64,000 nt of DNA, from the NCBI GenBank assembly GCA_965220625.1, contig CBDCQN010000001.1, positions 156,930 to 220,929 of the forward strand, read 5' to 3'. Origin of the DNA: Dehalococcoidia bacterium. GTDB taxonomy: Bacteria > Chloroflexota > Dehalococcoidia > Lucifugimonadales > UBA3495. The position numbers and the translations under genes were made by a program. The notes below the pieces were generated by a model. That model ran no database searches. It was not told the DNA's origin and was given only the letters and a program-made list of their open reading frames with translations. Below are positions 5,956-36,963 of this stretch, piece by piece; position 1 is the stretch's first letter; every line of letters starts with the position of its first letter.

Positions 5956-6000
5956 TGACTGATCCGGCCCAAAGGTTGGTCAGGCTATCCAGGCCGCTCT

Positions 6001-6819: not shown

Positions 6820-6900
6820 ATCTCAGCCGCCTCCTGACGTTCACAAACCAACATTTACTGAACAAGAACTCGTTCAGCCGTTGTATACTGCCACACTCCG

Positions 6901-8811
6901 GTGATAAATTCATCCTACTCACCCAACACTCCGAAACCATACCTGATTTTGTACGACTACGGACTGATAGGCGACATGTCTTCGGCGGCGCTTGTTGGAA
7001 CCGACGGCTCCGTAGACTGGTGTTGCTTTCCGCGGTTCGACTCTCCCAGCGTATTCGCCGCCGTCTTGGACCAAGAGGCCGGGGGCCGTTTCCGGATCAG
7101 CCCCGCCGGCCGGACCCTCGAGGCCCGGCAGGACTACGAGACCGATACCAACATTCTGGACACCACCTTTACAACCGCCGGGGGCGTCGTCCGCGTCACG
7201 GACTTCATGCCTGTCGCCGATCACGACGACATCCCGGAGACACCGCCGCTTTCCCACCACGAAATCCACCGCATCGTTACCTGCCTCTCCGGGGAGGTCG
7301 AACTGCGCTGCGATTTTCAGCCGAGACCCGACTACGCCCGCGCCTCGCCGGAATTTCGCCCGCTGCGCGGCGACCCGGGCGGCGGGGTGGTCCTCGCTCG
7401 CGGAGGCCGGCAAACCCTGACCCTCCTGGCCAGCGTCCCCCTTGAGATTGACGACCGGGGGGCCAACAGCCAAGCGGTCAACTGCGCCTTCACCCTGTCC
7501 CAAGGCCAGACCGCGACCTTTGTCCTGGCGTACGGCCACCGCCGTCCCGCAAGCCTCAACCGGTACCATACCGCCGAGAAACTCGACCACACGCGGCGCT
7601 ACTGGCTGGAAATGGTAGCCCGAATGAACTACGACGGCCTGTGGCGGGACACGGTGGTCCGCTCCTTCCTGGTCCTTCATCTCATGATGTACCAGCGCAC
7701 CGGGGCCATCGTCGCCGCGCCCACGACCAGCCTGCCTGAGACCATCGGAGGCTCCCGCAACTGGGACTACCGGTTTTCCTGGCTGCGCGACGCCAGCTTC
7801 ACCGTGGACGTCCTCTACCGATTGGGTAACGTTTACGGCGCCGGCCACTACATAGACTGGCTGCTGGAAAAGTGCCAACTGGACCATCGCAAGACACGCA
7901 TCGTGTATGGGGTCAGCCCCAACTCGTCACTCAAAGAATACACGCTCGACCATCTGCGAGGATACGAGGGGTCCAGCCCGGTACGCGTTGGCAACGCCGC
8001 CGACGCGCACCTTCAACTCGACGTCTTCGGAGAAGTCATCCTTTGCATCCACTCCCTGTTCCTGCTTCAAGGAGGGATAGCGGCTGAAGCCTGGGAACTG
8101 GTGCACGCTATGGCCGAAGCCGTTATGGCCAACTGGCAGCGGAAGGACCGGGGTGTTTGGGAAGTCCGAGGCGACGAGCAGCACTTCGTGTATTCCAAGG
8201 TAATGTGCTGGTGCGCCCTGGACCGGGCCGCCGATATCGCCGCCGCCACGGGAAACCGGCAAACGTCGCGCCGCTGGGCTCGGACCGCAGCCCGGATAAA
8301 GTCCGAAATACTGGACTTGGGATGGAGCTCGGAAAAGCAGGCGTTCCGCCAACGATACGGCAGCGAAGCTCTGGATGCTTCTAACCTGGTGATACCCTTC
8401 CTGGGCTTGGTCCCGCGCGACGACCCTCGCCTCCGCCAGAACGTGGACGCCATCGAACGAGAACTGACTGACGGCCCGCTGGTATGGCGCTATCTCCCGG
8501 AAGAGACGGACGACGGGCTGGGAGGCCAGCCGGAGGGCGCCTTCATCCTGCTCAGCTTCTGGCTAATCGGGAACCTGATCTACACTGGTCAGACCGACCG
8601 CGCTTTAGACTACTTCCACGAAATGATTACGAGACAGGCCAACCACCTCGGCTTGTTCGCCGAGATGTTCGACCTGGTCTCCAACCGCCAGCTCGGCAAC
8701 TTTCCGCAGGCATATTCCCACATCGGGCTGATTCACACCGCCCTGAACCTCTCCGGATTCATCGCCGATACCCCCACCAGACGCAGGAGACGCACTGGCC
8801 GCTCCCGATAG
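6901..8811 (+). CDS. Glycoside hydrolase family 15 (glucoamylase/trehalase-like)
   Basis: 636 aa. N-terminal YGLIGDMSSAALVGTDGSVDWCCFPRFDSPSVFAA and the (alpha/alpha)6 region RNWDYRFSWLRDASF are characteristic of GH15. Confidence 0.85.
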   Translation: MINSSYSPNTPKPYLILYDYGLIGDMSSAALVGTDGSVDWCCFPRFDSPSVFAAVLDQEAGGRFRISPAGRTLEARQDYETDTNILDTTFTTAGGVVRVTDFMPVADHDDIPETPPLSHHEIHRIVTCLSGEVELRCDFQPRPDYARASPEFRPLRGDPGGGVVLARGGRQTLTLLASVPLEIDDRGANSQAVNCAFTLSQGQTATFVLAYGHRRPASLNRYHTAEKLDHTRRYWLEMVARMNYDGLWRDTVVRSFLVLHLMMYQRTGAIVAAPTTSLPETIGGSRNWDYRFSWLRDASFTVDVLYRLGNVYGAGHYIDWLLEKCQLDHRKTRIVYGVSPNSSLKEYTLDHLRGYEGSSPVRVGNAADAHLQLDVFGEVILCIHSLFLLQGGIAAEAWELVHAMAEAVMANWQRKDRGVWEVRGDEQHFVYSKVMCWCALDRAADIAAATGNRQTSRRWARTAARIKSEILDLGWSSEKQAFRQRYGSEALDASNLVIPFLGLVPRDDPRLRQNVDAIERELTDGPLVWRYLPEETDDGLGGQPEGAFILLSFWLIGNLIYTGQTDRALDYFHEMITRQANHLGLFAEMFDLVSNRQLGNFPQAYSHIGLIHTALNLSGFIADTPTRRRRRTGRSR

Positions 8812-19227: not shown

Positions 19228-20361
19228 ATGGTATCGACAAAGAAAGACCGTTCACTGGTTGTCATCGAACTCGCCGGCGGTAACGACGCCCTGAATACTC
19301 TGGTCCCCTACAACAACGGCCTTTACTACGACTACCGCCCCAGCATTGGAATCCAGCAGGGGGACGTACTGGCGATCAACGGCGAGTACGGCTTCAACCC
19401 CAACATGCAGGCGGTTAAGGACCTGTGGGACCGGGGGGAACTGGCCATCATCAACGGGATCGGCTATCCCCAGCCCAACCGCTCCCACTTCCGTTCCAGG
19501 GACATCTGGTATACCGCCGAGCCGGAGAGCATCGGCAATCAGGGTTGGCTGGGCGCGGCCATTCGCGACTTGGACGCCAAGGGCGAGAACGTCCTGACCG
19601 GCGTCAACTTCGGCCGGGGCCTTCCCCGTGCGCTGGTCTGCCGGGGCGTGCCGGTTGCCTCAGTGGGCAACCTTGAGACCTACGGCCTGCTCCCCGACAT
19701 GAGCGACGAGAACGTACGGCACAATGCCCTGGACGCCTTGGGCCGCATGTACGGCCCCGCTGGCGGCAGGGACATTGTGGCCCAGACGCTGGCCGAGAAC
19801 GGCTCCCAGGCCCTGATGGGCGCGGACATCCTGCGCACCGCTCCCGAACGCTACTCCTCCAGCATCGAGTACGCCGATACCCCCATTTCCCAGAGCTTGA
19901 AGAGTGCCGCCCAAGTGATGAGCGCCGGTTTGGGGACCAGGGTGCTATATGCCCAGCACGGTAGCTTCGACACCCACAGCAACGAGCTTCAGTCCCATGC
20001 CAAGCTGTGGCAGGACGCTTCTGCCGCCATTGCCGACTTCACTGAGGACCTGAAGGAACAGGGCCTGTGGGAAGAAACGCTGGTGCTGGTGTGGTCCGAG
20101 TTCGGGCGCCGCGTGCGTGACAACGGCACCGGCTGCGACCACGGCTCCGGCGGAGTCGCGTTCGTCTTAGGCGGTTCGGTGGCGGGCGGCCTCTACGGCC
20201 AGTACCCATCGCTAAGGGATGCGGACCTCTCTGAAGGCGATATGGCCTACACCACGGACTTCCGGACCACCTATGCCACCGTCTTGGACCGCTGGCTGGG
20301 CCTGGACCCGGACCCCATAGTCCACGGCCAGTTCGAGCAGTTCGAGTTTATTACCCGTTAA
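19228..20361 (+). CDS. DUF1501-domain (sulfatase-fold) protein
   Basis: 377 aa with AAGGAG upstream. Motifs LAGGNDALNTLVPY, RSHFRSRDIW, HGSFDTHS and GTGCDHG. Confidence 0.85.
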   Translation: MVSTKKDRSLVVIELAGGNDALNTLVPYNNGLYYDYRPSIGIQQGDVLAINGEYGFNPNMQAVKDLWDRGELAIINGIGYPQPNRSHFRSRDIWYTAEPESIGNQGWLGAAIRDLDAKGENVLTGVNFGRGLPRALVCRGVPVASVGNLETYGLLPDMSDENVRHNALDALGRMYGPAGGRDIVAQTLAENGSQALMGADILRTAPERYSSSIEYADTPISQSLKSAAQVMSAGLGTRVLYAQHGSFDTHSNELQSHAKLWQDASAAIADFTEDLKEQGLWEETLVLVWSEFGRRVRDNGTGCDHGSGGVAFVLGGSVAGGLYGQYPSLRDADLSEGDMAYTTDFRTTYATVLDRWLGLDPDPIVHGQFEQFEFITR

Positions 20362-21744: not shown

Positions 21745-22542
21745 TTACTCCAAGAATCCTCGGAGCCGGCTTAGGAACTGGGATGTTTGCTCAGTCTCCG
21801 GACGGTGGCCGCAGTCGTCAATGACCGCCAACTCGGAGCCCGATATGGACTTGTTATAGAGATGACCGGCCGCCAGCGGGACAATAGCGTCGTCCCGGCC
21901 CCAGATAACCAACGTGGGCAGTCCTTCCACTCCCTCGAGCAGCGGTCCCAGGCTGGGGTTGTGCATGTAGGGTTTCCAGGCCAAACGTGACGCCTCGGCC
22001 CGGGCGTCTTCCCAAGCCTCGAACTGTTCGGCCGTCTCGTCGCCTCCGTAGAGGGACTGGAATTCCGGGTTGGCAGCGGCATCGCGGACGCTGGCGTTCA
22101 GATAGTTGCGCGCCGTCACCACGAACAGGTCCATAATCTCGCCTTCCGGCGGCCTGAGGCCGGTGGGCGCCACCAAGACCATTCGATCGAACTGGCCCGC
22201 GTCCGCCGCAGCCATCTCAGCGGCGATCCAACCGCCCAATGAGAAGCCGATTACATCAACCGGGCCCAACGCCAAATCCCGCAACATCCGCGAGTAGAAC
22301 CCGGCCAGGTCCCTCACGCCGCTGATCCAATCGATCCGGGGCAGCGCTCCGAATCCAGGGTGTACCGGTATCAAGAGTTGATGGTCTTGGGACAAGTCGG
22401 CGTGCCAGGCCAACCAACCGGGATGACCCAACTCTTCATGCAGGACCAAGACCGGCCGACCGGTACCGCCCTTATACATAAGGACGCTGCCGCCGCCTAC
22501 GTTGATTGTGCTTTCGGTATACCCATTGGAGGAAACTGGCAT
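21745..22542 (-). CDS. Alpha/beta-fold hydrolase
   Basis: Nucleophile elbow GFSLGG and HELGHPGW near the N-terminus. Start moved to ATG 22542, which has GGAGAGG upstream. The ORF track start is 22608. Confidence 0.8.
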   Translation of the reverse strand: MPVSSNGYTESTINVGGGSVLMYKGGTGRPVLVLHEELGHPGWLAWHADLSQDHQLLIPVHPGFGALPRIDWISGVRDLAGFYSRMLRDLALGPVDVIGFSLGGWIAAEMAAADAGQFDRMVLVAPTGLRPPEGEIMDLFVVTARNYLNASVRDAAANPEFQSLYGGDETAEQFEAWEDARAEASRLAWKPYMHNPSLGPLLEGVEGLPTLVIWGRDDAIVPLAAGHLYNKSISGSELAVIDDCGHRPETEQTSQFLSRLRGFLE

Positions 22543-22806
22543 ATTACGACGCCTCTCCAGTTGAGTTAGGGAAGATGTGCTGACCGGAAGTCTGGATGCG
22601 CACACCATTCTCGAACTAACCCGTCACAGTGTCAAGTACCTCCATCGAGAGGAATGTCACTCAGGATGGCCGAAAAAGGCACAAATAGTATTCTGATTCG
22701 TAGAATCGTTGAGGATTGCCGTGTCTCCAGTCATCAAATCGCAGGACAACCGGGAACCCCGGCATGTGTTACCATCGGGGAGTCAAACCCAGTCCAGAGG
22801 CCTGAC

Positions 22807-23647: not shown

Positions 23648-25336
23648 GATTGCCCAATCCTTCTTACCTCATGGAGTCGACCGGGTATCAGTGCGGGAAC
23701 ATCAGGATTCGCAGTACCGGCTACTCCGGCCCCGGTAGCTCAGCCCAAAATTACACGGGTGAGCATGGTCAACACCGTCCCCCTCAACGAGAGTAACCGC
23801 ATCTGGGTCGGCGGCTGGCCCAACCTCGTGCAGAACGACCCTTACGGCGAGACCCTGATCGAAAACCACGAGATCACGTCCGAGCCGGTCCCGGCCTTGG
23901 CCAACAGCTGGGTAGTCGACGCCGGGTTCAACACTTGGACTTTCCAATTGAACGAAGGCATTCCCTGGCATTTCGGCTACGGCGAATTCACTGCGGCCGA
24001 CGTGGCTCACACCTGGATGTTGGTTTCTCAAGAGGAAAGCAACAGCACCTTCAAGTCAATTTGGACGACTACCTACCCCGAGGTACACGACGACTACAGC
24101 ATCTCCTTTCATTTCGAAAACCCTCAGTTGACCGGAGGGCGGCTTTTCTCCCGGCTTCAAGGCGATCTCGTAATCCAGAGCAAAGCACAATGGGACGAAG
24201 CTGGCGGCGACCCGTCCGCGTATGACGATAGACCCACCGGTACTGGCTCCTACCAATACGGCGGCCGGGAATTGGCCGCCAGCGTTTGGTACGAAAAGAT
24301 CGACTACGACCACTGGGCCGGTGAAAACCCGGACTTTCAGGAACTGGAATGGATCTGGGCGGCCAAGCAGTTTACCCGCTTATCCATGTTGCTGGCTAGC
24401 GAGGTACAAGGCGCGGACCTGTCCCGAGAAGTACAGGTAGACGCCAAGGCCCGGGGGATGAAGGTCGTTTCGTCCAACAACGAAAACAACCAGTCCTACG
24501 GCTTCTTCGGAGGGACCTATCTAAGCACGGTCGACAGTAACCTGGAACCTTGGCCGGACGGCAACCACCCCCACTATTTGGGGGAAGAACCGTGGCACAA
24601 TCCCTTGGTGCGAGAGGCCTTTAACGTCGCGGTAGACCGTCAAGCCATCATCGACGAGGTATACTTCGGCAATGCCAGCTCGGTATACGTACCAGTGTTC
24701 GCTCCATTTACCGAGGGTTGGAGCGACCGTTGGGTGGACCAGTTCGACGATCAGTACGGCTACAACCCCGATCGCGCCGTCGAACTGCTGGCTGAGGCCG
24801 GCTACGGACCCGGAGACATCTCCATCGACATGTCCTCTACGGTAATTCCGGGCAACCCCGAGATCCCGCAATTGATCGAAATACTCTCCACCATGTGGGA
24901 GGCCGTAGGGGTCGACACCAACATCATAGACGTGGAGTTTGGCGCTTGGGCGGAAACTCTCTTCAACCATGACATTCACGAAACGTTCGTTATTCTTCGG
25001 AACACCCCCATCAGGACCACCCAGGAGGGTCTCCGTGTTTTCTGGGTATCCGCGCCCGACGGCTTGCTCTACGGGTGGGAGTCAGACTCCATCAACGAGC
25101 AGTACGATTGCTTGGAGCAATCATTGGACGTCGCGGAACGGGAGCAGTGCGCCCGCGACGCCGGCGACGAGATGTTCGATGATTTCCTGACGCTTCCGTT
25201 ATTCCAGACCACCTTCGACATGACCATAGACCCCGAATTCATCTCCGGATGGGTGTACCCTGGAGTCGGATCGGCCCACCCGACTCACGTTCACAACATA
25301 AAGGCCTGTCCGGTTGGCACGGAACGGTGCGACTAA
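23648..25336 (+). pseudogene. Family-5 substrate-binding protein, 5'-truncated (no signal peptide or lipobox)
   Basis: Paralogue of 40196-42298. Similarity to that gene (AVPAT...QPxIxRV...ESNRxWVGGW) continues upstream of the GTG 23759 start, as far as the in-frame stop at 23645-23647. The signal, lipobox and linker regions are absent. Confidence 0.5.
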
Positions 25337-25407
25337 GCCACTCAAGCCTTTTGCCATTGAGCCACAACCAGGCCCCAGCGGTTTTGCGCTTGCCGCGCAC
25401 CATAAAG

Positions 25408-25436
25408 AAAGACCCTCCGGCAATGGAGGGTCTTTT
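25408..25436 (+). terminator. Rho-independent terminator after SBP gene
   Basis: AAAGACCCTCC-GGCAAT-GGAGGGTCTTTT. Confidence 0.65.
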
Positions 25437-25457
25437 CGATGCGCCTACGAAGATATA

Positions 25458-25505
25458 GCAGGAGCGGCAGGATTCGAACCCGCGACCACTGGTTTTGGAG
25501 ACCAG
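25458..25505 (-). repeat. 48 bp copy of the 3' half of tRNA-Trp (att-like direct repeat)
   Basis: Identical over 48 nt to 31387-31434, spanning the anticodon stem through the first C of CCA of the intact tRNA-Trp. Same orientation. Confidence 0.9.
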
Positions 25506-25951
25506 GTCTTGAGGAGTCCTGGGGGTATTTGGAGCTGTTTGGAGGTTGGCTTCGTAGCTAATTGTCGGCTCTCACTTGTCGTGAGCCTCATCTAGCCTCT
25601 TAGAAGATTGACATTTTGGGATGGCGAATTAGCCTGCAAGATACCTGCATCGTTTCATCGATACCATCAAGCAGGCGTCGGACACGGGCCGGGAGTTGCC
25701 GGTCGCCTGAGGCGGCATTTCCTCAAAAACCGGAAACACGCTGGCGACCAATACCCATAGGTGACCCGGTCTTTGCGTTAGGCTCGTAACATGCTACCGG
25801 CCTGGTTTACGCCACATTTTCGAGCAGGCCCCGTGCACTGAACTGGAGACTGGTCCGGCAGCCGAAATTTTAAGGCCCCGTTGGCTTTCTATTATCACCG
25901 GGTGATGAATAGAAGTGTCGGGGCCTTGATAGATTTGGCGGTACGGGGTTG

Positions 25952-26713
25952 TCAGGCTGTCGCGGTCGCCGGTTGATGGGTCTTCAGGAAACGCCGGGCG
26001 TGGGATACGACCTCGTCGATGTGCTCCTGCGAGTCCTTCCAAGGGAAAATGGTCACCTCGGAGTTAGGGGCGAGACTGGCAACCTCCATCGCGCACTCGT
26101 AAGGGTGCGCCGGCACATCGTCGGGCGCTATCAGCAGCGGTGTCTGCAGCGTACGCACGAAATCGCGGGAAACGGTGAAAACGAAGTCGGCGCGGTTGGT
26201 ATACATGCTGGTCAGGAAGTCATGGACCATGTCCATTGTAATTTCCGGACGCTTCTCGCAAAGGGGCGGCCCCCACCCGGCTGTATTGTTCTGGTAGAAA
26301 ATATCAGGAATCTCCGGCCTGAACCCGCTCGGTTGCATCAACGCCGCTGCCACAATGCGCTCCGGGGCCAGCCTCAGCAGGTTGTGGATCATCGGCCCGC
26401 CGATGCAGAAGCCCATGACCAGGAACTCCTTGAGGCCGAGGTGGTCCATCAGCCCGAGTTGGTCATCAGAGTAGGCATCCCACGGGCGGTCGATCTCCAG
26501 TGGGCCACTGGACTGGCCCAGATTGGCGTTGCGTAAGTCGGCGGCGATACAGCGGAAGTCGTTTTGGTAGGTCTCCATCGGGTTGAAGGGCACCGACGTG
26601 TTCAAGGATGCCACGGTGGAATTAAGCCCGCCACCCGGAATGATCAGCAGCGGGAATCCCGAACCGACCTCTTCATAGTAGATACGGTTGGGACCTCTTT
26701 CGTAGAACGGCAT
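25952..26713 (-). CDS. Alpha/beta-fold hydrolase
   Basis: 253 aa with GGAGG upstream. GFPLLIIPGGG near the N-terminus and a MGFCIGG nucleophile elbow variant. Confidence 0.7.
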   Translation of the reverse strand: MPFYERGPNRIYYEEVGSGFPLLIIPGGGLNSTVASLNTSVPFNPMETYQNDFRCIAADLRNANLGQSSGPLEIDRPWDAYSDDQLGLMDHLGLKEFLVMGFCIGGPMIHNLLRLAPERIVAAALMQPSGFRPEIPDIFYQNNTAGWGPPLCEKRPEITMDMVHDFLTSMYTNRADFVFTVSRDFVRTLQTPLLIAPDDVPAHPYECAMEVASLAPNSEVTIFPWKDSQEHIDEVVSHARRFLKTHQPATATA

Positions 26714-26923
26714 GACGATTTTCCTCCATCAGCGAATTGCAAGGCTAACTTGATGTCGAATGAGCGGGCAGGCCGGAATATTCGGCCCAAGTCTTGCCCC
26801 TGCTCGAGGGCGAGGCCGCCGGCAGGCTGGAAGTACCGGCGAACCGCCTACTACGTCAAAGCGGAGACTACGGCCGGGCCGGAGGGGTCATCGGCGTTGG
26901 TCATGTCGAATCTTTCCGCACTG

Positions 26924-27901
26924 TTATTGTGGAATGGGAGCGTAATCAGGTATGAGACCTTCGTAGCGTAGCTCCTGCCACAGTGCGACGGGGATGGGAT
27001 GCGCCATCATCTGGAAGTTCTCTTCCGCTTCCGCTACAGACTGCGGGCCCGGTATCACTGCCGCAACGGCGGAATGACCAAAAACGAACTGAAGAGCAGC
27101 GGCCTTGAGAGGCACGCCGTGCCGGTCGCAGACCGCTTTACAACGCCTTGCTTGCTCCAAGATTTGGGCCGGGGCCGGCAGGTAATTGAAGGTCGCATTC
27201 TCTGTCAGGTCGGAGGCCAAAATACCGCTGTTGTACGGGCCGCCGATGATTACACTAATATTTTTCTCTTGGCACAGAGGAAGGAATTCGGAAAGCGCGG
27301 AATGGTCAAGAAGGGTGTACCGTCCCGCCAGCAGGAAGCAATCGAAGTCTCCCTCCCGAGCCAAACGGGCCTCCATTTCCCATTGGTTCATGCCGGCGCC
27401 GATGGCGGAAATTACCCCTTGGGAACGCAACTCTGAAAGGGCTTTGTAGGCCCCGTCCATCGCCTGGTCGAAATGGTTGTCCGGGTCGTGGATCAAAAGG
27501 ATGTCGACGTAGTCTAGATTCAGCCGTTTGAGACTCCCCTCGAAAACCCTCATGACGGTGTCGTAGTCGTATATGTAAGGCATATCGTTAGCCGCGTTCG
27601 GTCCGATTACCGCTCCCACCGGAGCAGGCGGGGCTGATTCCAATAACCTGCCTACTTTGGTGGAAATCGTGAAACTGGAACGCGGGATTTCAGAGAGAAC
27701 CTTCCCGTAGCGTTGCTCGCTAACGCCTCCGCCATATACCGGCGCCGTGTCAAAGTAGCTGACGCCAAGTTCGATGCATTTGCTGAGAGTTGTGGCGGCC
27801 TCGTCTTCGGTCGTAGACCGGCCCAACGCCACGCCGCCGACCCCCAGCCGTGATACTTTGAGCCCCGTACTTCCAATCTCGACCAATTCCAGCGGATCCA
27901 T
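26924..27901 (-). CDS. Aldo/keto reductase
   Basis: 325 aa. LGVGGVALG, YFDTAPVYGGG, DILLIHDPD and GAGMN motifs of the AKR family. Confidence 0.85.
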   Translation of the reverse strand: MDPLELVEIGSTGLKVSRLGVGGVALGRSTTEDEAATTLSKCIELGVSYFDTAPVYGGGVSEQRYGKVLSEIPRSSFTISTKVGRLLESAPPAPVGAVIGPNAANDMPYIYDYDTVMRVFEGSLKRLNLDYVDILLIHDPDNHFDQAMDGAYKALSELRSQGVISAIGAGMNQWEMEARLAREGDFDCFLLAGRYTLLDHSALSEFLPLCQEKNISVIIGGPYNSGILASDLTENATFNYLPAPAQILEQARRCKAVCDRHGVPLKAAALQFVFGHSAVAAVIPGPQSVAEAEENFQMMAHPIPVALWQELRYEGLIPDYAPIPQ

Positions 27902-28200
27902 CCCTTTCTCCTGACGGGCTGCGGCCCCAGACTGCCCGCGATGATACTTACGGGCCTTTCTAGTGTCAAATTGAGTTTAACAAACTCAGAGTCCGCCGAT
28001 GCCGCCATTGATTCCCCTCCGAAAACCTATCCGAGATAAGTGCCGGGATTCCGGATGATGGACCAGCCGCATTTCCTGTGCCAAGCTTAGAGCGAGTTTT
28101 GCCAGGACACGAAAAAGGCGTAGAGCTTGCCGGCGACGAACCAACTTCCTCGCTGTCCGCATTACATCCTCGCAGCCCCTGTGATAATCTGGAGCGTATT

Positions 28201-29019
28201 ATGAGAATACCGATTACGATGTGCCACGGAATCCGCCCCACTGCCGCTGGCGCCCTCCGCAATCCCTTGCCGGAGGAGCGGTTCGACATGCTGATGAGGA
28301 CTGCGGCGGAAATGGGGTTCCAGTCGATAAACTACGACCAACTGGCAGCTTGGCGGCAGGGAACCTCCTCCCTGCCGGAACGGCCAATCATGATCGACTT
28401 CGACCATCCGGTTGTCTCGATGCGCCGTGAGGTATTCCAGACACTGGAGCGGTATGGGTTCAAAGGGAACCTGTTCATCTACACCTCACCCTACGACCCG
28501 GGCTATCCCCGCCCGCTGGCGCTGGCCCAGGTTCCCGAGCACATGCCCTGGTCGGAAATACGGGAACTTCGCGACCTCGGCTGGCATATCGGCGCCCACA
28601 CCATCAGCCATCCCAACCTGTCCAACCTGGCTGCGGAGGACCCGGAAGGAGAGGTGTTGCGGGAGGAGTTGGACCGGTGCAACCGGGTAATCGAAGAAAA
28701 CCTCGGCTTTGTCCCGCAGGACTTTGCGTTTACCGGCACCAGTTGGAGCAGTGCCGCAGAGACCGAGGTCAAGAAAAGGTACCGGTTTGGCCGGCTGTGG
28801 ATAGTAGGGTCCGAATACGAGGTCGACGGCAAGCCGATGCGCTATGCCGAACTAGCCGGTTCGTCGGAACCCGATGAGGCCGACGGCGGCCCGCCCCACA
28901 GCACAAGATATATTACCGAACGCACCGACCCACACCGCCTGCCATCCATGGAACTTCAGGCTCTCATCAATGACCCTGACGCCTTCCGCTCGTACTTGGA
29001 AGGCGCGGCGGAAGATTAG
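28201..29019 (+). CDS. Polysaccharide deacetylase (NodB-like) family protein
   Basis: IMIDFDHP and GAHTISHPNLSNL resemble the NodB motifs. Start set at ATG 28201; the ORF track start is 28078. Confidence 0.6.
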   Translation: MRIPITMCHGIRPTAAGALRNPLPEERFDMLMRTAAEMGFQSINYDQLAAWRQGTSSLPERPIMIDFDHPVVSMRREVFQTLERYGFKGNLFIYTSPYDPGYPRPLALAQVPEHMPWSEIRELRDLGWHIGAHTISHPNLSNLAAEDPEGEVLREELDRCNRVIEENLGFVPQDFAFTGTSWSSAAETEVKKRYRFGRLWIVGSEYEVDGKPMRYAELAGSSEPDEADGGPPHSTRYITERTDPHRLPSMELQALINDPDAFRSYLEGAAED

Positions 29020-29253
29020 GGTCAGCGGCCCCGATGCCCTGACCTGAGCCGGGCCGCTGCCGAAAGGCCCTGGCATGACCTGAGGTCCGTCGGCCCCAGG
29101 TCATGCTCGAAGCCGTTCACCCGGAAATGTTCGCCGTCTTGGCAACGGGCCGGATCCTGGTTTCCGTAGTTGCCTGTTCGCCGCTCGACGAACCCACGCC
29201 ACCTCTGCGCCTCCGGCTCCGTACCGTTCAGGGAACACTTGTCCTCTTCGCGC

Positions 29254-30030
29254 CTACTGTGCCACGAACGACGTGACCGTGTCGGAATTGACGCGAACTG
29301 TGTACTCCTCGCCGGGCTCAAAGCCCGGTCCCAGAGGGACGTTCGTCTCCACTATGGGAAAATCGGCGGTACAGACGACGAGTTGGTCGGCGACCTCGTG
29401 GTGGGTAACGACCACCTCGATCTCATTCGATTCTCTCCGCCGGACTTCGTAGCCGTTGAACTGGGAACAGCCGCTGCCCTTGGGGAGACCGGAGACGACG
29501 AGAAGTTGGTACTGGGGTGGGAAGCTTTCGAGTATAGCGACCTCCGCGCTTTGAATCGGCGATTCGGCTACGAAGGTGTCGCGAAGGCTGGCCCTCGGCA
29601 GGCTGAACGAGGCCGTTGCCGAGTCGTTTACGATCACGCGGTAGGTCTCGCCCGGTTCAAGTGATGCCTTTATCGGCTCAACGGCGTCGAGTTCCACCAC
29701 CTGCTCGTCGCAGGGAATCGCCCAAGCTGTGGGAGGAGGTTGCACGAGCGTTATCGTCGCGACTATGTCAGTACCTTTCACTTCCAGACTCTGGCTGCCG
29801 GGGCGCGCGCAGCCTTCTATCGTTGACTGGTAGTAGCCGATGCGCAGTAAGTGTTCTCGCTCGTTCGGTATCAGGTTGGCCCAGCTTATCTTGGCCGGGA
29901 CCTCGATCCATTTCCGCCAGTCAACACCTTCATCGACCTGGTCGGGCGGCGGCTGAACGAGCACCAAGACCATGTCCACCTTGATAAAGCGGCACACCCC
30001 GCGGACGGCCCGAACAGGATCCCCACTCAA
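29254..30030 (-). CDS. Hypothetical protein with two tandem beta-rich modules
   Basis: 258 aa. Two modules end in EPGETYRVIVNDSATASFSL and EPGEEYTVRVNSDTVTSFVAQ, each with a Cys pair. No clear signal peptide. Confidence 0.4.
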   Translation of the reverse strand: MSGDPVRAVRGVCRFIKVDMVLVLVQPPPDQVDEGVDWRKWIEVPAKISWANLIPNEREHLLRIGYYQSTIEGCARPGSQSLEVKGTDIVATITLVQPPPTAWAIPCDEQVVELDAVEPIKASLEPGETYRVIVNDSATASFSLPRASLRDTFVAESPIQSAEVAILESFPPQYQLLVVSGLPKGSGCSQFNGYEVRRRESNEIEVVVTHHEVADQLVVCTADFPIVETNVPLGPGFEPGEEYTVRVNSDTVTSFVAQ

Positions 30031-30179
30031 AACAGGTTGACGTACGGAGCAGAGAAAGTTTGGATCTTCATCTGAGGTGGACCCAGGGCCTTTCGATTAT
30101 TCGTGAGAAACAGGAGAATAAGGAAGGCCACCCGCACCGGGGGAGCGGTTCCCGCGAGCCGCCGACTTCTTCACAGACC

Positions 30180-31340
30180 CTACCTTTCCACGTTCACGTA
30201 GTTGGAGCGCGGCCCGACGCCGGCGGCGTTGATGGCCTTGACGCGGTACACGTAGAGTTCTCCCGCTTGGACGTCTTCGTCCGTGTAGGTGGTGGCGGTC
30301 GTGCCCGTGTCGGATTCGTAGACCAGCAGCGTGTTCTCGTTCTGCCGCGGCATGCGTCGCACGATCTGGTAGCCCGTGATGTGTTCGTCGTCGGGCGCGG
30401 TCCAGCTGAGGACGACGTGGCCGTCATCGTTGACCGTGTAGGTCAGGTTCTGGGGCGCTGGCGGCGGCGACGTGGGCCCGGCGGGTTCGACCGCCGCCGT
30501 GGCCGCGCTGGTCAGACTCTCGGAGTTGCCGTTGTCGTCCGTGAACGATACCCGCACCTTGATGGCCTTGCCTTCTCGGTCGTCCGTGAGTTCAAGGCTG
30601 GAGCCGGTGGCATCGGTTATCTCGGCGTCGTCAGCCAGCCAGCGGTAGGCGTAGGAGACGTCGTCGAGTCCGTCAGCGTCGCTGATGCCGCTGACGGAGG
30701 TGGAGAGCGTCTCTCCGACCTGGGTCGTCCCCGTGATGGTCGGCTGACCGGTGGCGGCCGTGTTGGCCCTCCGGACCGTGGCCGTCACCGCGCTTTCCAG
30801 CGACCGGCCGTCCGGCGTGTTCACCGCGCCCGCGGGCAGGGTAATCGTCACCGCCCAGCGGCCGTCGGGCTCGATATGGATGGTCCAGTTCTGGTTCTGC
30901 CCTTTCGTCTGTCGCTCCGCGGTCGTCACGTTCCCGTGGGTGAGGTTGAAGGCGTCGCGGAGCGTCAGGTAGCTCAGCCCGTTGACGTCTTCGCTGAACT
31001 GCAGCGTGAACGTGAACGTGTTGGCGCCATCGTGGGATACGGGAACGTTCTGGACGCTCGCCGTCAGGGCTGGGAGCGTTTGAGTTTCGCTGTTCCTGAT
31101 GGTGCCGGTCGCTTCGGCGTCGCCGAGTGCGGCGACGGTCGGGTTGCTCAGCGTCAGCGTACGCCAGCCGAAACGGGTCGCCGCGGCCTGCGGGGGGTCC
31201 TTGGCTCTGCTTCCCGCGAACAGGGTTGTCGTTGGGGTGGCAGGGTCGTTGCCGGTACCAGAACTTCGAGCACAACGCGCGAAGCGAGGGAACGGGATTA
31301 AACAAGTCGTTAGCTCCTTGCTGCCGTTTATCCAATCCAT
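30180..31340 (-). CDS. Ig-like/fibronectin type III repeat protein, probably a 5'-truncated fragment of a larger surface protein
   Basis: C-terminal FN3 domain (PPAPQNLTYTV...LSWTAPDDEHITGYQIVRR...YVYRVKAINAAGVGPRS). Upstream Ig-like repeat (GQPTITGTTQVGETLSTSVSGISDADGLDDVSYAYRW). No signal peptide. The ORF-track N-terminus reads through the tRNA-Trp and was trimmed to ATG 31340. Confidence 0.45.
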   Translation of the reverse strand: MDWINGSKELTTCLIPFPRFARCARSSGTGNDPATPTTTLFAGSRAKDPPQAAATRFGWRTLTLSNPTVAALGDAEATGTIRNSETQTLPALTASVQNVPVSHDGANTFTFTLQFSEDVNGLSYLTLRDAFNLTHGNVTTAERQTKGQNQNWTIHIEPDGRWAVTITLPAGAVNTPDGRSLESAVTATVRRANTAATGQPTITGTTQVGETLSTSVSGISDADGLDDVSYAYRWLADDAEITDATGSSLELTDDREGKAIKVRVSFTDDNGNSESLTSAATAAVEPAGPTSPPPAPQNLTYTVNDDGHVVLSWTAPDDEHITGYQIVRRMPRQNENTLLVYESDTGTTATTYTDEDVQAGELYVYRVKAINAAGVGPRSNYVNVER

Positions 31341-31384
31341 GGTCGTCAAGCGCGCATGCACCGGCTGGCGACCTATCTGTAATT

Positions 31385-31462
31385 TGGCAGGAGCGGCAGG
31401 ATTCGAACCCGCGACCACTGGTTTTGGAGACCAGCGCTCTGGCCAGACTGAGCTACGCTCCT
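31385..31462 (-). tRNA. trnW: tRNA-Trp (anticodon CCA), CCA end encoded
   Basis: Hand-folded cloverleaf: AGGAGCG TA GCTC AGTCTGGCCA GAGC G CTGGT CTCCAAA ACCAG TGGTC GCGGG TTCGAAT CCTGC CGCTCCT G CCA. Confidence 0.9.
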
Positions 31463-31618
31463 GCGTCACCGGCCTGATTTAGGCCGTTTTCGTAAAGCCC
31501 GGCCGATTCAGCCGGACTCGCCAGAGTAATTCGATTTTAGAGCAATCTCGTCCCTTTGAACAGTGAGAGACATTCCCGATTGGAGTTGGAGTGCCGCCGA
31601 CTTAGGGTTCCTGCCGGT

Positions 31619-32410
31619 CTATGGACTGCCAGCCGAGCTGCCACCATCAACCATGTATACACCGCCGGTGCAAAAGCTGCTTTCGTCACTGGCAAGAAAC
31701 AGCATCAAATTGGCCACTTCCTCAGGGTTTCCGTATCGCTGAAGCGGGATGCGCACGGCAAAGGACTGCTTCGCCTGCTCAACGGTAACCGCGGAGTCGT
31801 CCAACCCCGCGACACGCATTTCCTCGATCGAGCGCATCATCCGTGTTTCAATCGGGGCGGGATTGACAGTGTTGACCCGAATACCCACTGGCGCGCCCTC
31901 CAGCGCGGCGGTGCGCATCAGGCCGATAACCGCATGTTTGCTGGTGACATATGCCGACATATCCGCCGTCCCCCGGATTCCGGCAGCAGAAGACGTAATC
32001 ACGATGCTGCCGCCTCCCCGTGCACTCATTACGGGGGTCACGTACTTGATCCCCAGCCATACTCCGCGCACGTTGACCGCCATCACCCGGTCGAATACGT
32101 CGATGGGGTAGTCCGGTATGGAAGATACGGAACCTTCGATTCCGGCGTTGGCCAAGAATATATCGACCCCGCCCCAACGGTCTATCGCCGCGTTGACGTA
32201 AGCCTGGACCTGTTCCGGCTGGGTGACGTCCGCAACCGCATAGCTGGCCCTTTCTTCGCCAATCGTTCGGACCGCGGCTTGGAGCGCCGCCTCGTCAAGG
32301 TCGATCAACACGACCCTGGCGCCTTCATCGGCAAACAGCCTTGCGGCAGCCTGGCCAATCCCACCGGTTGCGCCCGTAATCAAGGCTATCTTCCCTTCCA
32401 AGCGGACCAT
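31619..32410 (-). CDS. SDR-family oxidoreductase
   Basis: 263 aa with AAGGAG upstream. TGATGGIGQAAA and the YVTSKHAV (YxxxK) catalytic motif. Confidence 0.85.
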   Translation of the reverse strand: MVRLEGKIALITGATGGIGQAAARLFADEGARVVLIDLDEAALQAAVRTIGEERASYAVADVTQPEQVQAYVNAAIDRWGGVDIFLANAGIEGSVSSIPDYPIDVFDRVMAVNVRGVWLGIKYVTPVMSARGGGSIVITSSAAGIRGTADMSAYVTSKHAVIGLMRTAALEGAPVGIRVNTVNPAPIETRMMRSIEEMRVAGLDDSAVTVEQAKQSFAVRIPLQRYGNPEEVANLMLFLASDESSFCTGGVYMVDGGSSAGSP

Positions 32411-32563
32411 TCGCCTCTCCTTTCACCTTTTTTGGCCGTTAATTGGAAACGGGGCCAATATGGGCCAACATATCGTTAATTAGCAACTGCCCGGTCAAAA
32501 GCGAGTCTGCGGGATTATCAGGTCCTGCGTGGAATCAAGAAACCTTGAGAACGAAGAAGTGAG

Positions 32564-33218: not shown

Positions 33219-33316
33219 GACTGCTAGAATAGGCCTTCCCCGGTCCGGCGCCTGCGGCAGCCTCATCAAGGTCCCGCATGGGGATTGACCTGGACGCAGC
33301 AATGGAGGACCCACCA

Positions 33317-34444
33317 ATGACCAGCACCCATCAAGACCCCGTTCTGGTTGTCATACAAGTCACCGGCGGCAACGATTACATGAACACCGTGGTCCCCTAC
33401 GCCGACCCGCTGTACCAGGACAACCGGCCCACGGTGGGCGTTCCCGTGGATGAAGTCCTTCCCATAGACGAACGTTTCGGGTTCAATCCCGCCTTGGCCC
33501 CGCTAAAGGACCTCTACGACGACGGCCGGGTGGCGGTGATCAACGGCATCGGCTACCCCAACCCCAACCGTTCCCACTTTCGGGCCATGGACATCTGGCA
33601 CACGTGCGAGCCCGAACGCATCGCCACCGAGGGCTGGTTGGGCCGGGTGGTCCGCGACCTCGACCCGGCGGCCGAGAACGTCCTCACCGCAGTCAACTTC
33701 GGTCGCGGGCTGCCCCGAGCCCTCTCCCTTCCCGGTGTCCCGGTGGCTTCCGTGGCCGTACTGGAGAACTACGGCGTCTTGAACGCCATCACCAGCGAGG
33801 AGCAACGGGCCAGGGCCCTGGACGTTTTTGCCCGGATGTACGCTCCCGCGATCGGGACCGGGCCTACGATGGACTACCTCGGCCAGACGGGGCTCGACGC
33901 GCTGAAGGGGGCCGACCTCCTCAAGTCGGCCGGTGACGGCTACACTTCTACGGTGGAGTACGCCGCCACGCCGATCGCCCAGAACCTGAAGGGCATCGCC
34001 AAGGTGCTGCTGGCCGGTCTGGGAACGCGGGTCTTCTACACGCTGCAAGCTGGCTACGACACCCACTCCGGCCAGGTACAGGTGCAACCCCAGTTGCTCT
34101 CGGAGCTGGCGGGCGGCATCGCCGGCTTCTACGCCGACCTGCAAGAACACCACGCGTCCGAAAACGTCCTGATGCTGGTGTTCACCGAGTTCGGCCGCCG
34201 GGTGAGGGACAATGGCAACGGCACCGATCACGGTTCGGGAGGGGCCGCCTTCGTCATCGGCGACCGGGTCGCCGGGGGAATGCACGGCATGTATCCCTCG
34301 CTGAAGGAAGAAGACCTCCTGGACGGCGACCTCCATTTCCAGGTCGACTTCCGCAGCGTCTACAGCACCATCGTCGAGGGCTGGCTGGAGTTGGACGCCC
34401 AACCCATCGTTGGCGGCAACTACGAGCGCCTGAATTTCCTGTAG
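33317..34444 (+). CDS. DUF1501-domain (sulfatase-fold) protein, second paralogue
   Basis: Same motifs as 19228-20361 (TGGNDYMNTVVPY, RSHFRAMDIW, GYDTHS, GTDHG). Start set at ATG 33317 with GGAGG upstream. Confidence 0.85.
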   Translation: MTSTHQDPVLVVIQVTGGNDYMNTVVPYADPLYQDNRPTVGVPVDEVLPIDERFGFNPALAPLKDLYDDGRVAVINGIGYPNPNRSHFRAMDIWHTCEPERIATEGWLGRVVRDLDPAAENVLTAVNFGRGLPRALSLPGVPVASVAVLENYGVLNAITSEEQRARALDVFARMYAPAIGTGPTMDYLGQTGLDALKGADLLKSAGDGYTSTVEYAATPIAQNLKGIAKVLLAGLGTRVFYTLQAGYDTHSGQVQVQPQLLSELAGGIAGFYADLQEHHASENVLMLVFTEFGRRVRDNGNGTDHGSGGAAFVIGDRVAGGMHGMYPSLKEEDLLDGDLHFQVDFRSVYSTIVEGWLELDAQPIVGGNYERLNFL

Positions 34445-35325: not shown

Positions 35326-36963
35326 TCAGAACTTGGAGAATTCGCCCTCGTCCCGGGTGATGAACTCCAGCACCACCGGCCGGCCGGAGTTGGTGGCCTC
35401 CAGCCCGCGGTTGATGGCCGGGACGATCTCACCGGGGTCGGTCACCTTTTCGCTATAGGCCCCCATCGCTTGGGCCACCTCGGCGAACTGTCCCGAAAGC
35501 TCCTTTACGTTGTACCGTTCCAAGGCTACGGGAAACCGCAGATTGTCGTAGATCGACATGTAGGAGTTGTTGTTCACGACGGTCATGATGGGGATGTCGC
35601 ACCGCACGGCCGTTTCAATGTCGAGCCCGACAGTGCTGAAGGCCATATCGCCCATCACGTTGATGACCTGCTTTTCTGGAAAGGCCATCTTGGCTCCCAT
35701 GGCCAGCCCCAGGCTGTAGCCCAACTGGGTGGACTTGCCCCAGCCGATGAAGCTGCGGGGCGCCCGGGCCTCCCAGAAGGGCACCATGTATTCACGGGAG
35801 CTGCCCGACTCGTGGGTGACGATAGTATTGTCCAAGTCCACCGTGTGCATCAGGTCCCACACCACCCGGTAGGGGTTGATGGGGGTTTCGGAAGACGTGA
35901 GCTTGGGCATCCATTGAGCCAGCCAGGCTTCCTTGACGGACCTGATATCGGCCTGCAGCGCTTGGTTCCGCGGCCGGGCGCTCCCGGCCAAGTCTTTCAG
36001 TTCACCCAACAATTGCCGGAGCACCAGCTTGGTGTCGCCCAGAATCGGGTAGTCGCACTTGTACTCTCGGCCGATGGCGTCCTCATCGTTGGTGGTATGT
36101 ATCATCGTTTTGTCGGCGGCAATCAGCGGGGCGAAGAAGGACTTGGCGAAGCTGCAACCCGCGCCGAACACGAGGTCGGCCCCGTTCAGGTACTTGTTCA
36201 CCGCGGCGGTGGTGCTGGGCCCCGCGGCGCCCAAGGCCAGCGGATGATTCTCCGGAAAGGCGCTCTTGCCCGGCAGGGTGGTCATGACCGGGGCCTGCAA
36301 AAACTCGGCAAGCTCCACAAGCTCGTCGGAGGCCTCCGCGTACAGAACGCCTTGGCCCGCATGAATTACCGGCCGTTCGGCGGCCAAGAGGGCGGCGGCC
36401 GCCCGGCTCACGTCGGCCGGGTCGCCCTGCTGCCGCACCGCCCGCGGAGCTTCGTAGTTGAACAGCTCCTCGGGCAACTCGGCGGTGGCGATGTCTTGGG
36501 GGATTTCCAGCAACACCGGGCCGGGCCTCCCGCTGCGCAGCTTGCCGAAGGCCCGGCGCATCAGGTCTGGAATCGTCTCCACAATGTTCATCTCGGCGGA
36601 CCATTTGGTGATGGTCTCGTAGCTACGGGTGGGATAGAAATTGGGGTGTACGCCCCTCTTGTCCCGCGGCATCCCGGCGGGCAGAAGGAGGATGGGCACC
36701 GATTCCGAGAACGCTTGGGCCACGCCGCCGAAGGCGTTCTCCGCGCCGGGGCCGTTCTGCATCATGAATACGCCCAACCGCTTCCCGTTGGTCACCCGTG
36801 AGTAGCCGTCGACCATGTGGATGCCGGTACTCTCTTGGCGGAAAATCAAAGGCCGGATGCCAGCGATAGCCGCCGCCTCCAGCAGCGGTTGGTAGGGAAC
36901 ACACCCGACAAACTCCACGCCTTCCATGCGCAGGATGTTGGCGATGGCCGTAACTCCGTCCAC
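35326..36963 (-). CDS. Thiamine-pyrophosphate-dependent enzyme (acetolactate synthase large-subunit-like)
   Basis: 545 aa with a GTG start and GAGGAG upstream. N-terminal TPP-pyrimidine domain (QESTGIHMVDGYSRV, NGPGAENA). C-terminal TPP-binding region GDMAF...NNNSY. Confidence 0.85.
   Translation of the reverse strand: MDGVTAIANILRMEGVEFVGCVPYQPLLEAAAIAGIRPLIFRQESTGIHMVDGYSRVTNGKRLGVFMMQNGPGAENAFGGVAQAFSESVPILLLPAGMPRDKRGVHPNFYPTRSYETITKWSAEMNIVETIPDLMRRAFGKLRSGRPGPVLLEIPQDIATAELPEELFNYEAPRAVRQQGDPADVSRAAAALLAAERPVIHAGQGVLYAEASDELVELAEFLQAPVMTTLPGKSAFPENHPLALGAAGPSTTAAVNKYLNGADLVFGAGCSFAKSFFAPLIAADKTMIHTTNDEDAIGREYKCDYPILGDTKLVLRQLLGELKDLAGSARPRNQALQADIRSVKEAWLAQWMPKLTSSETPINPYRVVWDLMHTVDLDNTIVTHESGSSREYMVPFWEARAPRSFIGWGKSTQLGYSLGLAMGAKMAFPEKQVINVMGDMAFSTVGLDIETAVRCDIPIMTVVNNNSYMSIYDNLRFPVALERYNVKELSGQFAEVAQAMGAYSEKVTDPGEIVPAINRGLEATNSGRPVVLEFITRDEGEFSKF

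What the first reader, a model, noticed from the sequence alone, without database searches (positions are those of the whole stretch)
25458..31462. tRNA-Trp with a 48 bp direct repeat of its 3' half 5.9 kb away: integrase-less genomic islet
31387-31434 runs from the anticodon stem to the first C of CCA of the intact tRNA-Trp. It is repeated exactly at 25458-25505 in the same orientation. This is the classic attL/attR footprint of an element integrated into a tRNA 3' end.

The bounded segment encodes:
- an alpha/beta hydrolase
- an aldo-keto reductase
- a NodB-like deacetylase
- a two-module hypothetical protein
- a signal-less Ig/FN3 protein fragment abutting the tRNA

I could find no integrase or excisionase. 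A ~450 bp lower-GC non-coding stretch (25506-25951) sits next to the distal repeat and may be what remains of the recombination module.
Basis: partly seen in the sequence, partly recalled or inferred. Interest (0 to 1): 0.55.

Follow-up and report, generated by a model that had tools for sequence, protein, structure and literature searches.

The report
Decayed integrase-less island at tRNA-Trp
A 5.9-kb stretch next to a tRNA-Trp gene in an uncultured Dehalococcoidia bacterium is the worn-down remnant of a mobile element that once inserted into that gene; this kind of relic is well known and ordinary.

Summary
An intact tRNA-Trp(CCA) gene lies at 31385-31462 (minus strand). An exact 48-nt direct copy of its 3' part, from the anticodon stem to the first C of CCA, lies at 25458-25505. 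That copy has no 5' half and is followed by an intrinsic terminator.

The repeat's geometry is the standard footprint of tyrosine-integrase insertion at the anticodon loop of a tRNA gene. Two other Dehalococcoidia genomes carry tyrosine integrases 63-70 nt from the same tRNA.

No integrase or remnant of one exists in the islet or anywhere in the 64-kb window. The 446-nt non-coding stretch is not a decayed recombination module.

Four other assemblies at 92-98% identity carry the same islet, and all lack an integrase. They show erosion:
- The window's FN3 "fragment" is an 865-aa secreted Calx-beta/FN3 gene that lost 1,473 nt internally.
- A further 494 nt is missing next to the tRNA.
- Other strains carry a YscW-like gene in that position, an IS66 insertion, or loss of the hydrolase gene.

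Composition is host-like, and the cargo genes sit in other contexts in relatives. No empty site was found in close relatives.

Verdict: an old, immobilised, eroding tRNA-gene island. It is a new member of a known kind and of low interest.

The parts
31385..31462 (-). Intact tRNA-Trp(CCA) gene with encoded CCA. By inference it is a hybrid: the 5' part is from the host, and positions 26/27-76 were supplied by the inserted element.
   Evidence: ARAGORN. Rfam RF00005 at 68 bits. Identical in the four related assemblies.
31387..31434 (-). tRNA-proximal copy of the 48-nt repeat (attL core), lying inside the working gene.
25458..25505 (-). Displaced 3' fragment of tRNA-Trp (attR core). It is an exact 48-nt copy. 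In the window its CCA reads CTA. Relatives L029 and L059 keep CCA and one more base, giving 51 nt.
   Evidence: Not called as a tRNA.
25408..25435 (-). Intrinsic terminator hairpin (11 pairs, then a T-rich tail) just downstream of the displaced fragment. By inference it is the original terminator of the tRNA gene, possibly shared with the convergent solute-binding-protein gene 23759-25336.
   Evidence: Conserved in L029, L058 and L059.
25506..25951 (.). Non-coding distal end of the islet, GC 0.54. It contains a long imperfect hairpin (25874-25925) right after the hydrolase stop codon. There is no trace of a recombinase. It is the most variable part of the locus among strains.
   Evidence: IS66 inserted at the equivalent of 25592-25602 in L058. 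Deleted in L066.
25952..26713 (-). Alpha/beta hydrolase (253 aa), cargo gene.
   Evidence: Pfam Abhydrolase_1, 2.8e-11. Absent from L066.
26924..27901 (-). Aldo-keto reductase (325 aa), cargo gene. Homologues of 85-90% identity sit in unrelated contexts elsewhere, next to rpsL and cobalamin genes or next to an M24 peptidase.
   Evidence: Pfam 1.4e-46..
28201..29019 (+). NodB-type polysaccharide deacetylase (272 aa), cargo gene. Homologues of 83-93% identity sit next to an M19 peptidase elsewhere.
   Evidence: Pfam Polysacc_deac_1..
29254..29973 (-). 239-aa two-module beta protein (precomputed Pfam ORF11_beta; weak fn3 match). Part of the tRNA-proximal variable segment.
   Evidence: Absent from L051, L058 and L066.
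30180..31361 (-). Remnant of an 865-aa secreted Calx-beta/FN3 protein gene. A 1,473-nt internal deletion, with its junction near 31160-31162, removed the signal peptide and N-terminal half and shifted the frame relative to the original start near 31305.
   Evidence: Pfam fn3. Full-length gene in L059 at 5218-7815. Junction mapped.
31374..31384 (.). The 11 nt next to the tRNA 3' end that are shared by all strain variants. Immediately beyond them (31373/31374) is the scar of a 494-nt deletion relative to L059.

Best explanation
The segment 25506-31384 is the decayed remnant of a genetic element that entered the tRNA-Trp gene by tyrosine-integrase site-specific recombination, with the crossover in the anticodon loop.

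The element carried its own copy of tRNA positions 26/27-76. That copy now completes the working gene. The host's original 3' part, with its terminator, was pushed 5.9 kb downstream (25458-25505 plus the terminator at 25408-25435).

The integrase, and any excision or transfer genes, were lost before the split of the five sampled strains (the window and four relatives), which are 92-98% identical. Since then the segment has been inherited with the chromosome. It has been eroding through deletions, an IS insertion, point mutations in the displaced fragment, and homologous exchange between strains.

On its own it can no longer move. Today it is a small accessory locus carrying a hydrolase, an aldo-keto reductase, a deacetylase and remnants of surface-protein genes.

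Shown: the footprint, the absence of recombinase genes, the strain-to-strain erosion, and the use of this tRNA by integrases in the lineage. Inferred: the original integration event and the loss of the integrase.
For: 1. The footprint is exact. The repeat is a direct 48-nt copy (51 nt in L029 and L059). It ends at the tRNA's CCA terminus and begins at the 5' base of the anticodon stem. The intact gene lies upstream and the 3' fragment downstream on the tRNA strand. This is the island signature defined in PMC4383910.

2. The terminator follows the displaced fragment. No terminator-like hairpin is evident by eye in the sequence after the intact gene; the terminator scan was not run on that region.

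3. Tyrosine integrases lie 63-70 nt from the 3' end of the identical tRNA-Trp in L033 (388 aa) and L003 (interrupted by an IS), and in metagenome locus L053.

4. More distant relatives L027 and L050 have tRNA-Trp 160-215 nt from the hydrolase gene homologous to window 21745-22608, with none of the intervening DNA. Across 51 loci the DNA downstream of this tRNA is highly variable.

5. The cargo is a mosaic. Close homologues of the deacetylase and the reductase lie in unrelated neighbourhoods in other genomes.

6. The islet is in a different state of decay in each related assembly: L059, L058, L029+L051 and L066.
Against: - There is no integrase, excisionase or remnant in the islet or in the 64-kb window.
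- No empty site (solute-binding gene, terminator, intact tRNA-Trp) was found in a close relative. An exact search for the outer junction in metagenome contigs found nothing.
- GC and tetranucleotide content of the islet are not unusual for the window: it ranks 79th of 117 windows.
- The cargo genes are typical of the lineage. Nothing resembles known phages or plasmids apart from the tRNA itself and a generic reductase match.
- The sequence next to the intact tRNA does not resemble that of the two integrase-bearing elements.
- In the outgroups without the islet, the solute-binding and Uma2 genes are also missing. The comparison is therefore not a clean empty site.
Confidence: 0.72

Rival explanations
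1. The islet is a cis- or trans-mobilisable element in the sense of CIMEs. It has lost its own integrase but keeps two working att sites. It can still be excised, or can ride along when an integrase-bearing element specific for tRNA-Trp enters the cell.
For: - Both 48-nt cores are identical in the window, L029 and L059, although the adjacent non-coding DNA differs by about 10-13% between these genomes.
- Integrases that target this same tRNA exist in the lineage.
- The CIME definition (att sites kept, integration and transfer genes lost) fits (PMC6323972).
Against: - The fragment has 4 substitutions in L058 and is shortened to 41 nt with 1 substitution in L066, so it is not generally maintained.
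- Islet and flanks diverge together across strains, which points to vertical inheritance.
- No excised circle, empty site or second location was found.
- The arm-side sequence differs from that of the L033 and L003 elements.
- The identity of the cores could equally come from chance over 48 nt or from conversion by the tRNA gene.
Confidence: 0.1
2. The repeat did not arise by site-specific integration. It is the leftover of a segmental duplication or homologous (Campbell-type) insertion that duplicated the tRNA gene, after which one copy lost its 5' half.
For: Genome L039 has two complete tRNA-Trp genes 4.8 kb apart. Each has duplicated downstream flank, and together they bracket an ABC-transporter operon. 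So duplication of this tRNA region does occur in the lineage. The islet also has host-like composition and lineage-typical genes.
Against: - The repeat ends exactly at the tRNA's CCA terminus and starts exactly at the anticodon stem. Sequence is unrelated immediately outside on both sides in all strains.
- A duplication followed by deletion would not be expected to hit both of these boundaries.
- In L039 the repeat includes the whole gene plus about 400 nt of flank, which is a different pattern.
Confidence: 0.1
3. The 446-nt non-coding stretch 25506-25951 is the decayed integrase/excisionase module of the element.
For: It is the only sizeable non-coding stretch in the islet, it lies next to an att core, and its GC is 0.54.
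Against: - No protein-family match at E <= 10 in any frame.
- No tblastn match to lineage integrases, serine recombinases or transposases.
- 446 nt is far shorter than an integrase gene.
- Part of it is the hairpin after the hydrolase gene (read from the sequence).
- Lineage integrases at this tRNA sit at the other, tRNA-proximal end.
Confidence: 0.04
4. The repeat is an assembly artefact: a mis-join or collapsed repeat in a metagenome contig.
For: The window comes from a metagenome assembly at about 7x coverage, judging from the contig name.
Against: The same tRNA, islet and fragment arrangement is present in other assemblies from other samples, with strain-specific differences.
Confidence: 0.01

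Closest known systems
Genomic islands integrated in tRNA/tmRNA genes by tyrosine integrases (the Islander signature; PMC4383910)
   Same: An intact tRNA gene, a cognate 3' fragment in direct orientation, and the island between them. The repeat spans the anticodon stem to the 3' end, which from memory of Williams 2002 (Nucleic Acids Res 30:866; not held in the library) is the anticodon-loop sublocation class. The same tRNA is used by integrases in related genomes.
   Different: There is no integrase gene, which the Islander definition requires. The island is very small (5.9 kb). It carries no phage, conjugation or mobilisation genes, and its composition is host-like.
CIMEs, cis-mobilisable elements (defined in PMC6323972: integration and transfer genes lost, attL and attR retained)
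   Same: It is flanked by two sequence-identical att cores, and it lacks integration and transfer genes.
   Different: No parent ICE or IME is known. No mobilisation has been shown. The att fragment is decaying in two of the four related assemblies. CIMEs have been described mainly in streptococci, not in Chloroflexota.
Anchored or degenerate pathogenicity and fitness islands at tRNA genes in enterobacteria (from general knowledge; not tested here)
   Same: tRNA-adjacent accessory DNA whose mobility genes have decayed, fixed within a lineage, and variable between strains.
   Different: Those islands are usually tens of kilobases, compositionally atypical, and often retain integrase pseudogenes. 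Here no pseudogene is detectable.

Membership tests
tRNA-gene genomic island (Islander definition) | An intact tRNA gene plus a cognate 3' fragment of it on the same replicon, in direct orientation, with the fragment downstream of the gene | tested here: met
   The fragment lacks a 5' half.
tRNA-gene genomic island (Islander definition) | A tyrosine integrase gene inside the interval | tested here: not met
   Pfam and precomputed annotation show none. tblastn with lineage integrases gives E > 0.5. None in the whole window. None in the islets of L058, L059, L051 or L066.
tRNA-gene genomic island (Islander definition) | The interval is absent from related genomes (an empty site) | tested here: inconclusive
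   L027 and L050 (about 80% nucleotide identity) have tRNA-Trp 160-215 nt from the hydrolase gene homologous to 21745-22608, but they also lack the solute-binding and Uma2 genes. All close relatives carry the islet. The junction search in metagenomes found nothing.
tRNA-gene genomic island (Islander definition) | The target tRNA is used by integrases in the same lineage | tested here: met
   L033, L003 and L053 have integrases 63-70 nt from the same tRNA-Trp.
CIME (cis-mobilisable element) | Intact attL and attR | tested here: inconclusive
   The cores are 48/48 identical in the window. Whether the arm sites are intact is unknown. The fragment is mutated in L058 and truncated in L066.
CIME (cis-mobilisable element) | Loss of both integration and transfer genes | tested here: met
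CIME (cis-mobilisable element) | Excision or transfer together with an incoming integrative element | not testable with these tools
   This needs an experiment or population read data.
Prophage remnant | Phage structural, replication or lysis genes | tested here: not met
   PHROGs gives only generic Ig/FN3 and enzyme matches. No DNA similarity to 50,697 phage records apart from tRNA-Trp genes.
Second, degraded tRNA gene (pseudo-tRNA from gene duplication) | Residual 5' half, or flanks shared with the intact copy | tested here: not met
   Sequence is unrelated immediately beyond both ends of the repeat. This contrasts with the whole-gene duplication in L039.

The most novel reading that the evidence does not exclude
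The islet is still recombination-competent, as a CIME-like hitch-hiker. On this reading its two att cores are kept identical in several strains because it is periodically excised and re-integrated, or carried along in tandem, by tRNA-Trp-specific integrases supplied in trans by elements like those in L033 and L003. That would be the first integrase-less mobilisable island described in Dehalococcoidia/SAR202-type bacteria.
Probability: 0.08. Interest if true: 0.45.

Novelty: new member of a known kind. Interest (0 to 1): 0.18.

Why it matters
The main value is as a clean, well-documented example. It shows that the classic tRNA-gene integration footprint also occurs in uncultured Dehalococcoidia (SAR202-like) genomes. 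It also shows that such islands can persist as small integrase-less accessory loci. Five sampled strains record how one is taken apart step by step, through deletions, an IS insertion, mutation of the displaced fragment, and homologous exchange.

For annotation, it is a reminder that tools requiring an integrase gene will miss such relics. It also shows that a "gene fragment abutting a tRNA" can result from an internal deletion and need not mark the island boundary.

It does not open a new mechanism or answer an open question.

Tried and rejected
- **attP or empty-site forms.** The 48-mer has no match in viral contigs. The outer-junction pattern has no match in metagenome contigs.
- **Relatives of the L033 integrase with both island ends visible.** There were none in viral contigs. 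The single metagenome contig found is too short.
- **A third, degenerate tRNA-like copy inside the islet**, which would indicate a tandem array. None was found in the window, L029 or L051.
- **Repeats of the non-coding stretches elsewhere** in the window or loci. None were found.
- **A native TPP-enzyme/SDR/deacetylase/reductase cluster split by the tRNA region.** This was rejected because the TPP and SDR genes in L060 and L062 are only about 30% identical paralogues.
- **A single inversion linking the majority arrangement to the window.** The majority arrangement is solute-binding gene, tRNA-Trp, DUF1501. I could not make the orientations fit, so this was dropped (reasoning).
- **Compositional foreignness of the islet.** There is none.
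- **The Rfam sub-threshold hit "rnk_pseudo" at 25401-25487** (28 bits against a gathering score of 55). It is simply the terminator plus the tRNA fragment, so I treat it as chance.
- **Conservation of the fragment as a sign of function.** It is suggestive in three genomes but contradicted by L058 and L066.
Full report
**1. The observation**

ARAGORN finds three tRNA genes in the window. One is tRNA-Trp(CCA) at 31385-31462 on the minus strand, and Rfam confirms it at 68 bits.

The repeat finder reports one outstanding direct repeat. The block 25458-25505 is identical to 31387-31434 over 48 nt, and the match extends to 53 nt at 96%. A search allowing three mismatches finds just these two copies, and 100 shuffles give none.

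Read on the tRNA strand, the block runs from the 5' base of the anticodon stem to the first C of CCA. The distal copy has no tRNA 5' half beside it and is not called as a tRNA. It is followed after 22 nt by an 11-pair stem-loop with a T-rich tail, at 25435-25408 on the minus strand. Beyond that lies the 3' end of a convergent SBP_bac_5 gene.

**2. Source and relatives**

The window is part of a 361-kb metagenome contig, ENA ERZ25072076. The 48-mer occurs exactly in 51 loci of the species-representative genome collection. All are Dehalococcoidia, Chloroflexi or SAR202 genomes assembled from metagenomes.

In nearly all of these the 48-mer is part of a single complete tRNA-Trp. What lies downstream of that tRNA varies widely:
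- a DUF1501 gene in most genomes,
- an HpcH-type aldolase gene in several,
- the homologue of the window's hydrolase gene 21745-22608 in four (L019, L021, L027, L050),
- tyrosine integrases in two.

In L033 a 388-aa integrase (Phage_integrase plus SAM_3) ends 63 nt from the tRNA. In L003 an integrase that has been split by an IS ends about 70 nt from it. L053 is a metagenome copy of the L033 arrangement. This tRNA is therefore a real integration target in the lineage.

**3. Is there a recombinase here?**

No. The evidence:
- Pfam and precomputed annotation show none within 10 kb either side.
- The two lineage integrases find nothing in the window by tblastn (best E = 0.59).
- A panel of twelve integrases, serine recombinases, transposases and a primase-like protein from related loci finds nothing at E <= 0.1.
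- The six-frame pieces of 25506-25951 hit no family even at E <= 10.

That stretch starts with a long hairpin right after the hydrolase stop codon (read from the sequence). Its GC of 0.54 is within the range of other intergenic regions. It is interrupted by an IS66 in one strain and deleted in another. It is not a decayed recombination module.

**4. Sister strains show what happened**

Homologues of the aldo-keto reductase led to further assemblies of the same locus.

| Assembly | Identity to window | State of the islet |
|---|---|---|
| L059 (same sample, different contig) | ~98% | Intact tRNA and an exact fragment 7.9 kb apart. Complete 865-aa Calx-beta/FN3 gene with a signal peptide, followed by the ORF11_beta gene. 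|
| L029+L051 (one GenBank contig) | ~95% | About 0.5 kb carrying a YscW-like lipoprotein gene in place of the FN3/ORF11_beta segment. |
| L058 | ~95-97% | Same YscW-like variant. An IS66 transposase lies in the non-coding stretch, and the displaced fragment has four transitions. |
| L066 | ~92% | Only the deacetylase and reductase remain. The fragment is cut to 41 nt with one substitution. The solute-binding gene is truncated by IS elements. |

The window equals L059 minus two pieces:
- 494 nt, starting 11 nt after the tRNA;
- 1,473 nt inside the FN3 gene. This deletion removes the signal peptide and N-terminal half and shifts the frame relative to the original start.

The first ~65-80 nt after the tRNA are shared by L059, L051 and L058. 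One deletion per lineage from a longer ancestor, followed by two further deletions in the window, would explain the FN3 and YscW-like variants; L066 needs additional losses.

Islet genes and flanking genes differ by similar amounts between strains. None of the variants has an integrase inside the repeat pair. The islet was therefore already integrase-less in their common ancestor.

**5. Origin of the cargo**

The closest homologues outside this clade sit in other neighbourhoods:
- the deacetylase next to an M19 peptidase;
- the reductase next to the rpsL operon and cobalamin genes, or next to an M24 peptidase;
- the nearest FN3 homologue beside a large serine recombinase and IS genes.

The islet is thus a mosaic of lineage-typical genes. 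This fits its unremarkable GC and tetranucleotide content. It has no similarity to known phages or plasmids apart from the tRNA itself and a generic reductase match.

**6. Interpretation**

The geometry matches the island signature described for tRNA-gene islands (PMC4383910). The repeat is a 3' part of the tRNA in direct orientation. Its ends fall at the CCA terminus and at the anticodon stem. The terminator stays with the displaced fragment.

From memory, it also matches the anticodon-loop class of Williams 2002. That paper is not held in the library, so this point is not a tested result.

I conclude, with confidence about 0.7, that this is a relic of tyrosine-integrase insertion that has lost its mobility genes and is eroding. 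In definition it resembles a CIME, with att sites kept and integration and transfer genes lost (PMC6323972). Continued mobility is unlikely for two reasons. The fragment decays in two lineages, and the islet has co-diverged with its flanks.

A non-site-specific duplication origin is not excluded. L039 shows whole-tRNA duplication in this group. However, that origin does not explain why both ends of the repeat fall on tRNA landmarks.

**7. Limits**

- No empty site was found in a close relative.
- The outgroups that lack the islet also lack the two neighbouring genes.
- The integration event itself is therefore inferred, not observed.

**8. Verdict**

The main interpretation is supported by indirect evidence. 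The sub-claim about the non-coding stretch is rejected, and the FN3 "fragment" is explained by an internal deletion. This is a new member of a known kind and of low interest.

Noticed in passing
window 31463-32563 (SDR gene 31619-32410): A 1.1-kb block with a short-chain dehydrogenase gene sits exactly in the 3-nt spacer that separates tRNA-Arg and tRNA-Trp in other Dehalococcoidia. In L025, L040, L043 and L033 these tRNA genes are 3 nt apart. No tRNA-Arg fragment or other repeat flanks the block, so how it got there is unexplained.
   Followed up: partly
L039 1206-1283 and 5990-6067: One genome has two complete tRNA-Trp genes 4.8 kb apart. Each is followed by the 5' part of the DUF1501 gene, and together they bracket an operon of a solute-binding protein and two permeases. 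This is a whole-gene-plus-flank repeat, unlike an integrase footprint.
   Followed up: partly
L066 1-5098 (equivalent to window beyond 35275): In one strain a P4-type integrase (373 aa; Arm-DNA-bind_3, Phage_int_M, Phage_integrase) and a DUF5906 protein abut the RadC gene, where the window has the TPP-enzyme gene 35326-36963. This is a separate integrative element, and its attachment site was not identified because the contig ends.
   Followed up: no
window 30180-31361; L059 5218-7815; L054: The Calx-beta/FN3 repeat protein belongs to a very large family: 1,385 homologues at E <= 1e-5 among the 8,000 candidates scored, almost all from ENA metagenomes, with shuffled modules. Its nearest relative lies next to a 574-aa large serine recombinase and IS genes.
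   Followed up: partly
window 25500-29100 compared with L059: Two co-occurring strains from the same sample are nearly identical across the solute-binding gene and across FN3/ORF11_beta. They differ about 2% across the hydrolase-reductase-deacetylase block, and by up to 38 differences per 100 nt at 25800-25899. The edges of the divergent tract fall at the displaced tRNA fragment and in the deacetylase/ORF11_beta intergenic region, which looks like a homologous exchange tract.
   Followed up: partly
window 25458-25505 and equivalents in L029, L059, L058, L066: The displaced fragment is identical to the tRNA in three genomes even though the adjoining non-coding DNA differs by 10-13%. It carries four transitions in L058 and one in L066. 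This could reflect conversion by the tRNA gene, or chance; it was not resolved.
   Followed up: partly
window 19228-20361 and 33278-34444: Two DUF1501 paralogues, 53% identical at the protein level, lie either side of the tRNA region. In most related genomes the second one is the immediate downstream neighbour of tRNA-Trp, in the opposite relative orientation to the window. This implies rearrangements around this tRNA in the lineage.
   Followed up: partly
window 22606-22640: A short motif upstream of the hydrolase gene 21745-22608 (ATTCTYGA, then about 15 nt, then GTGTCAAG) is conserved in L019, L021, L027 and L050. It is possibly a promoter or operator.
   Followed up: no
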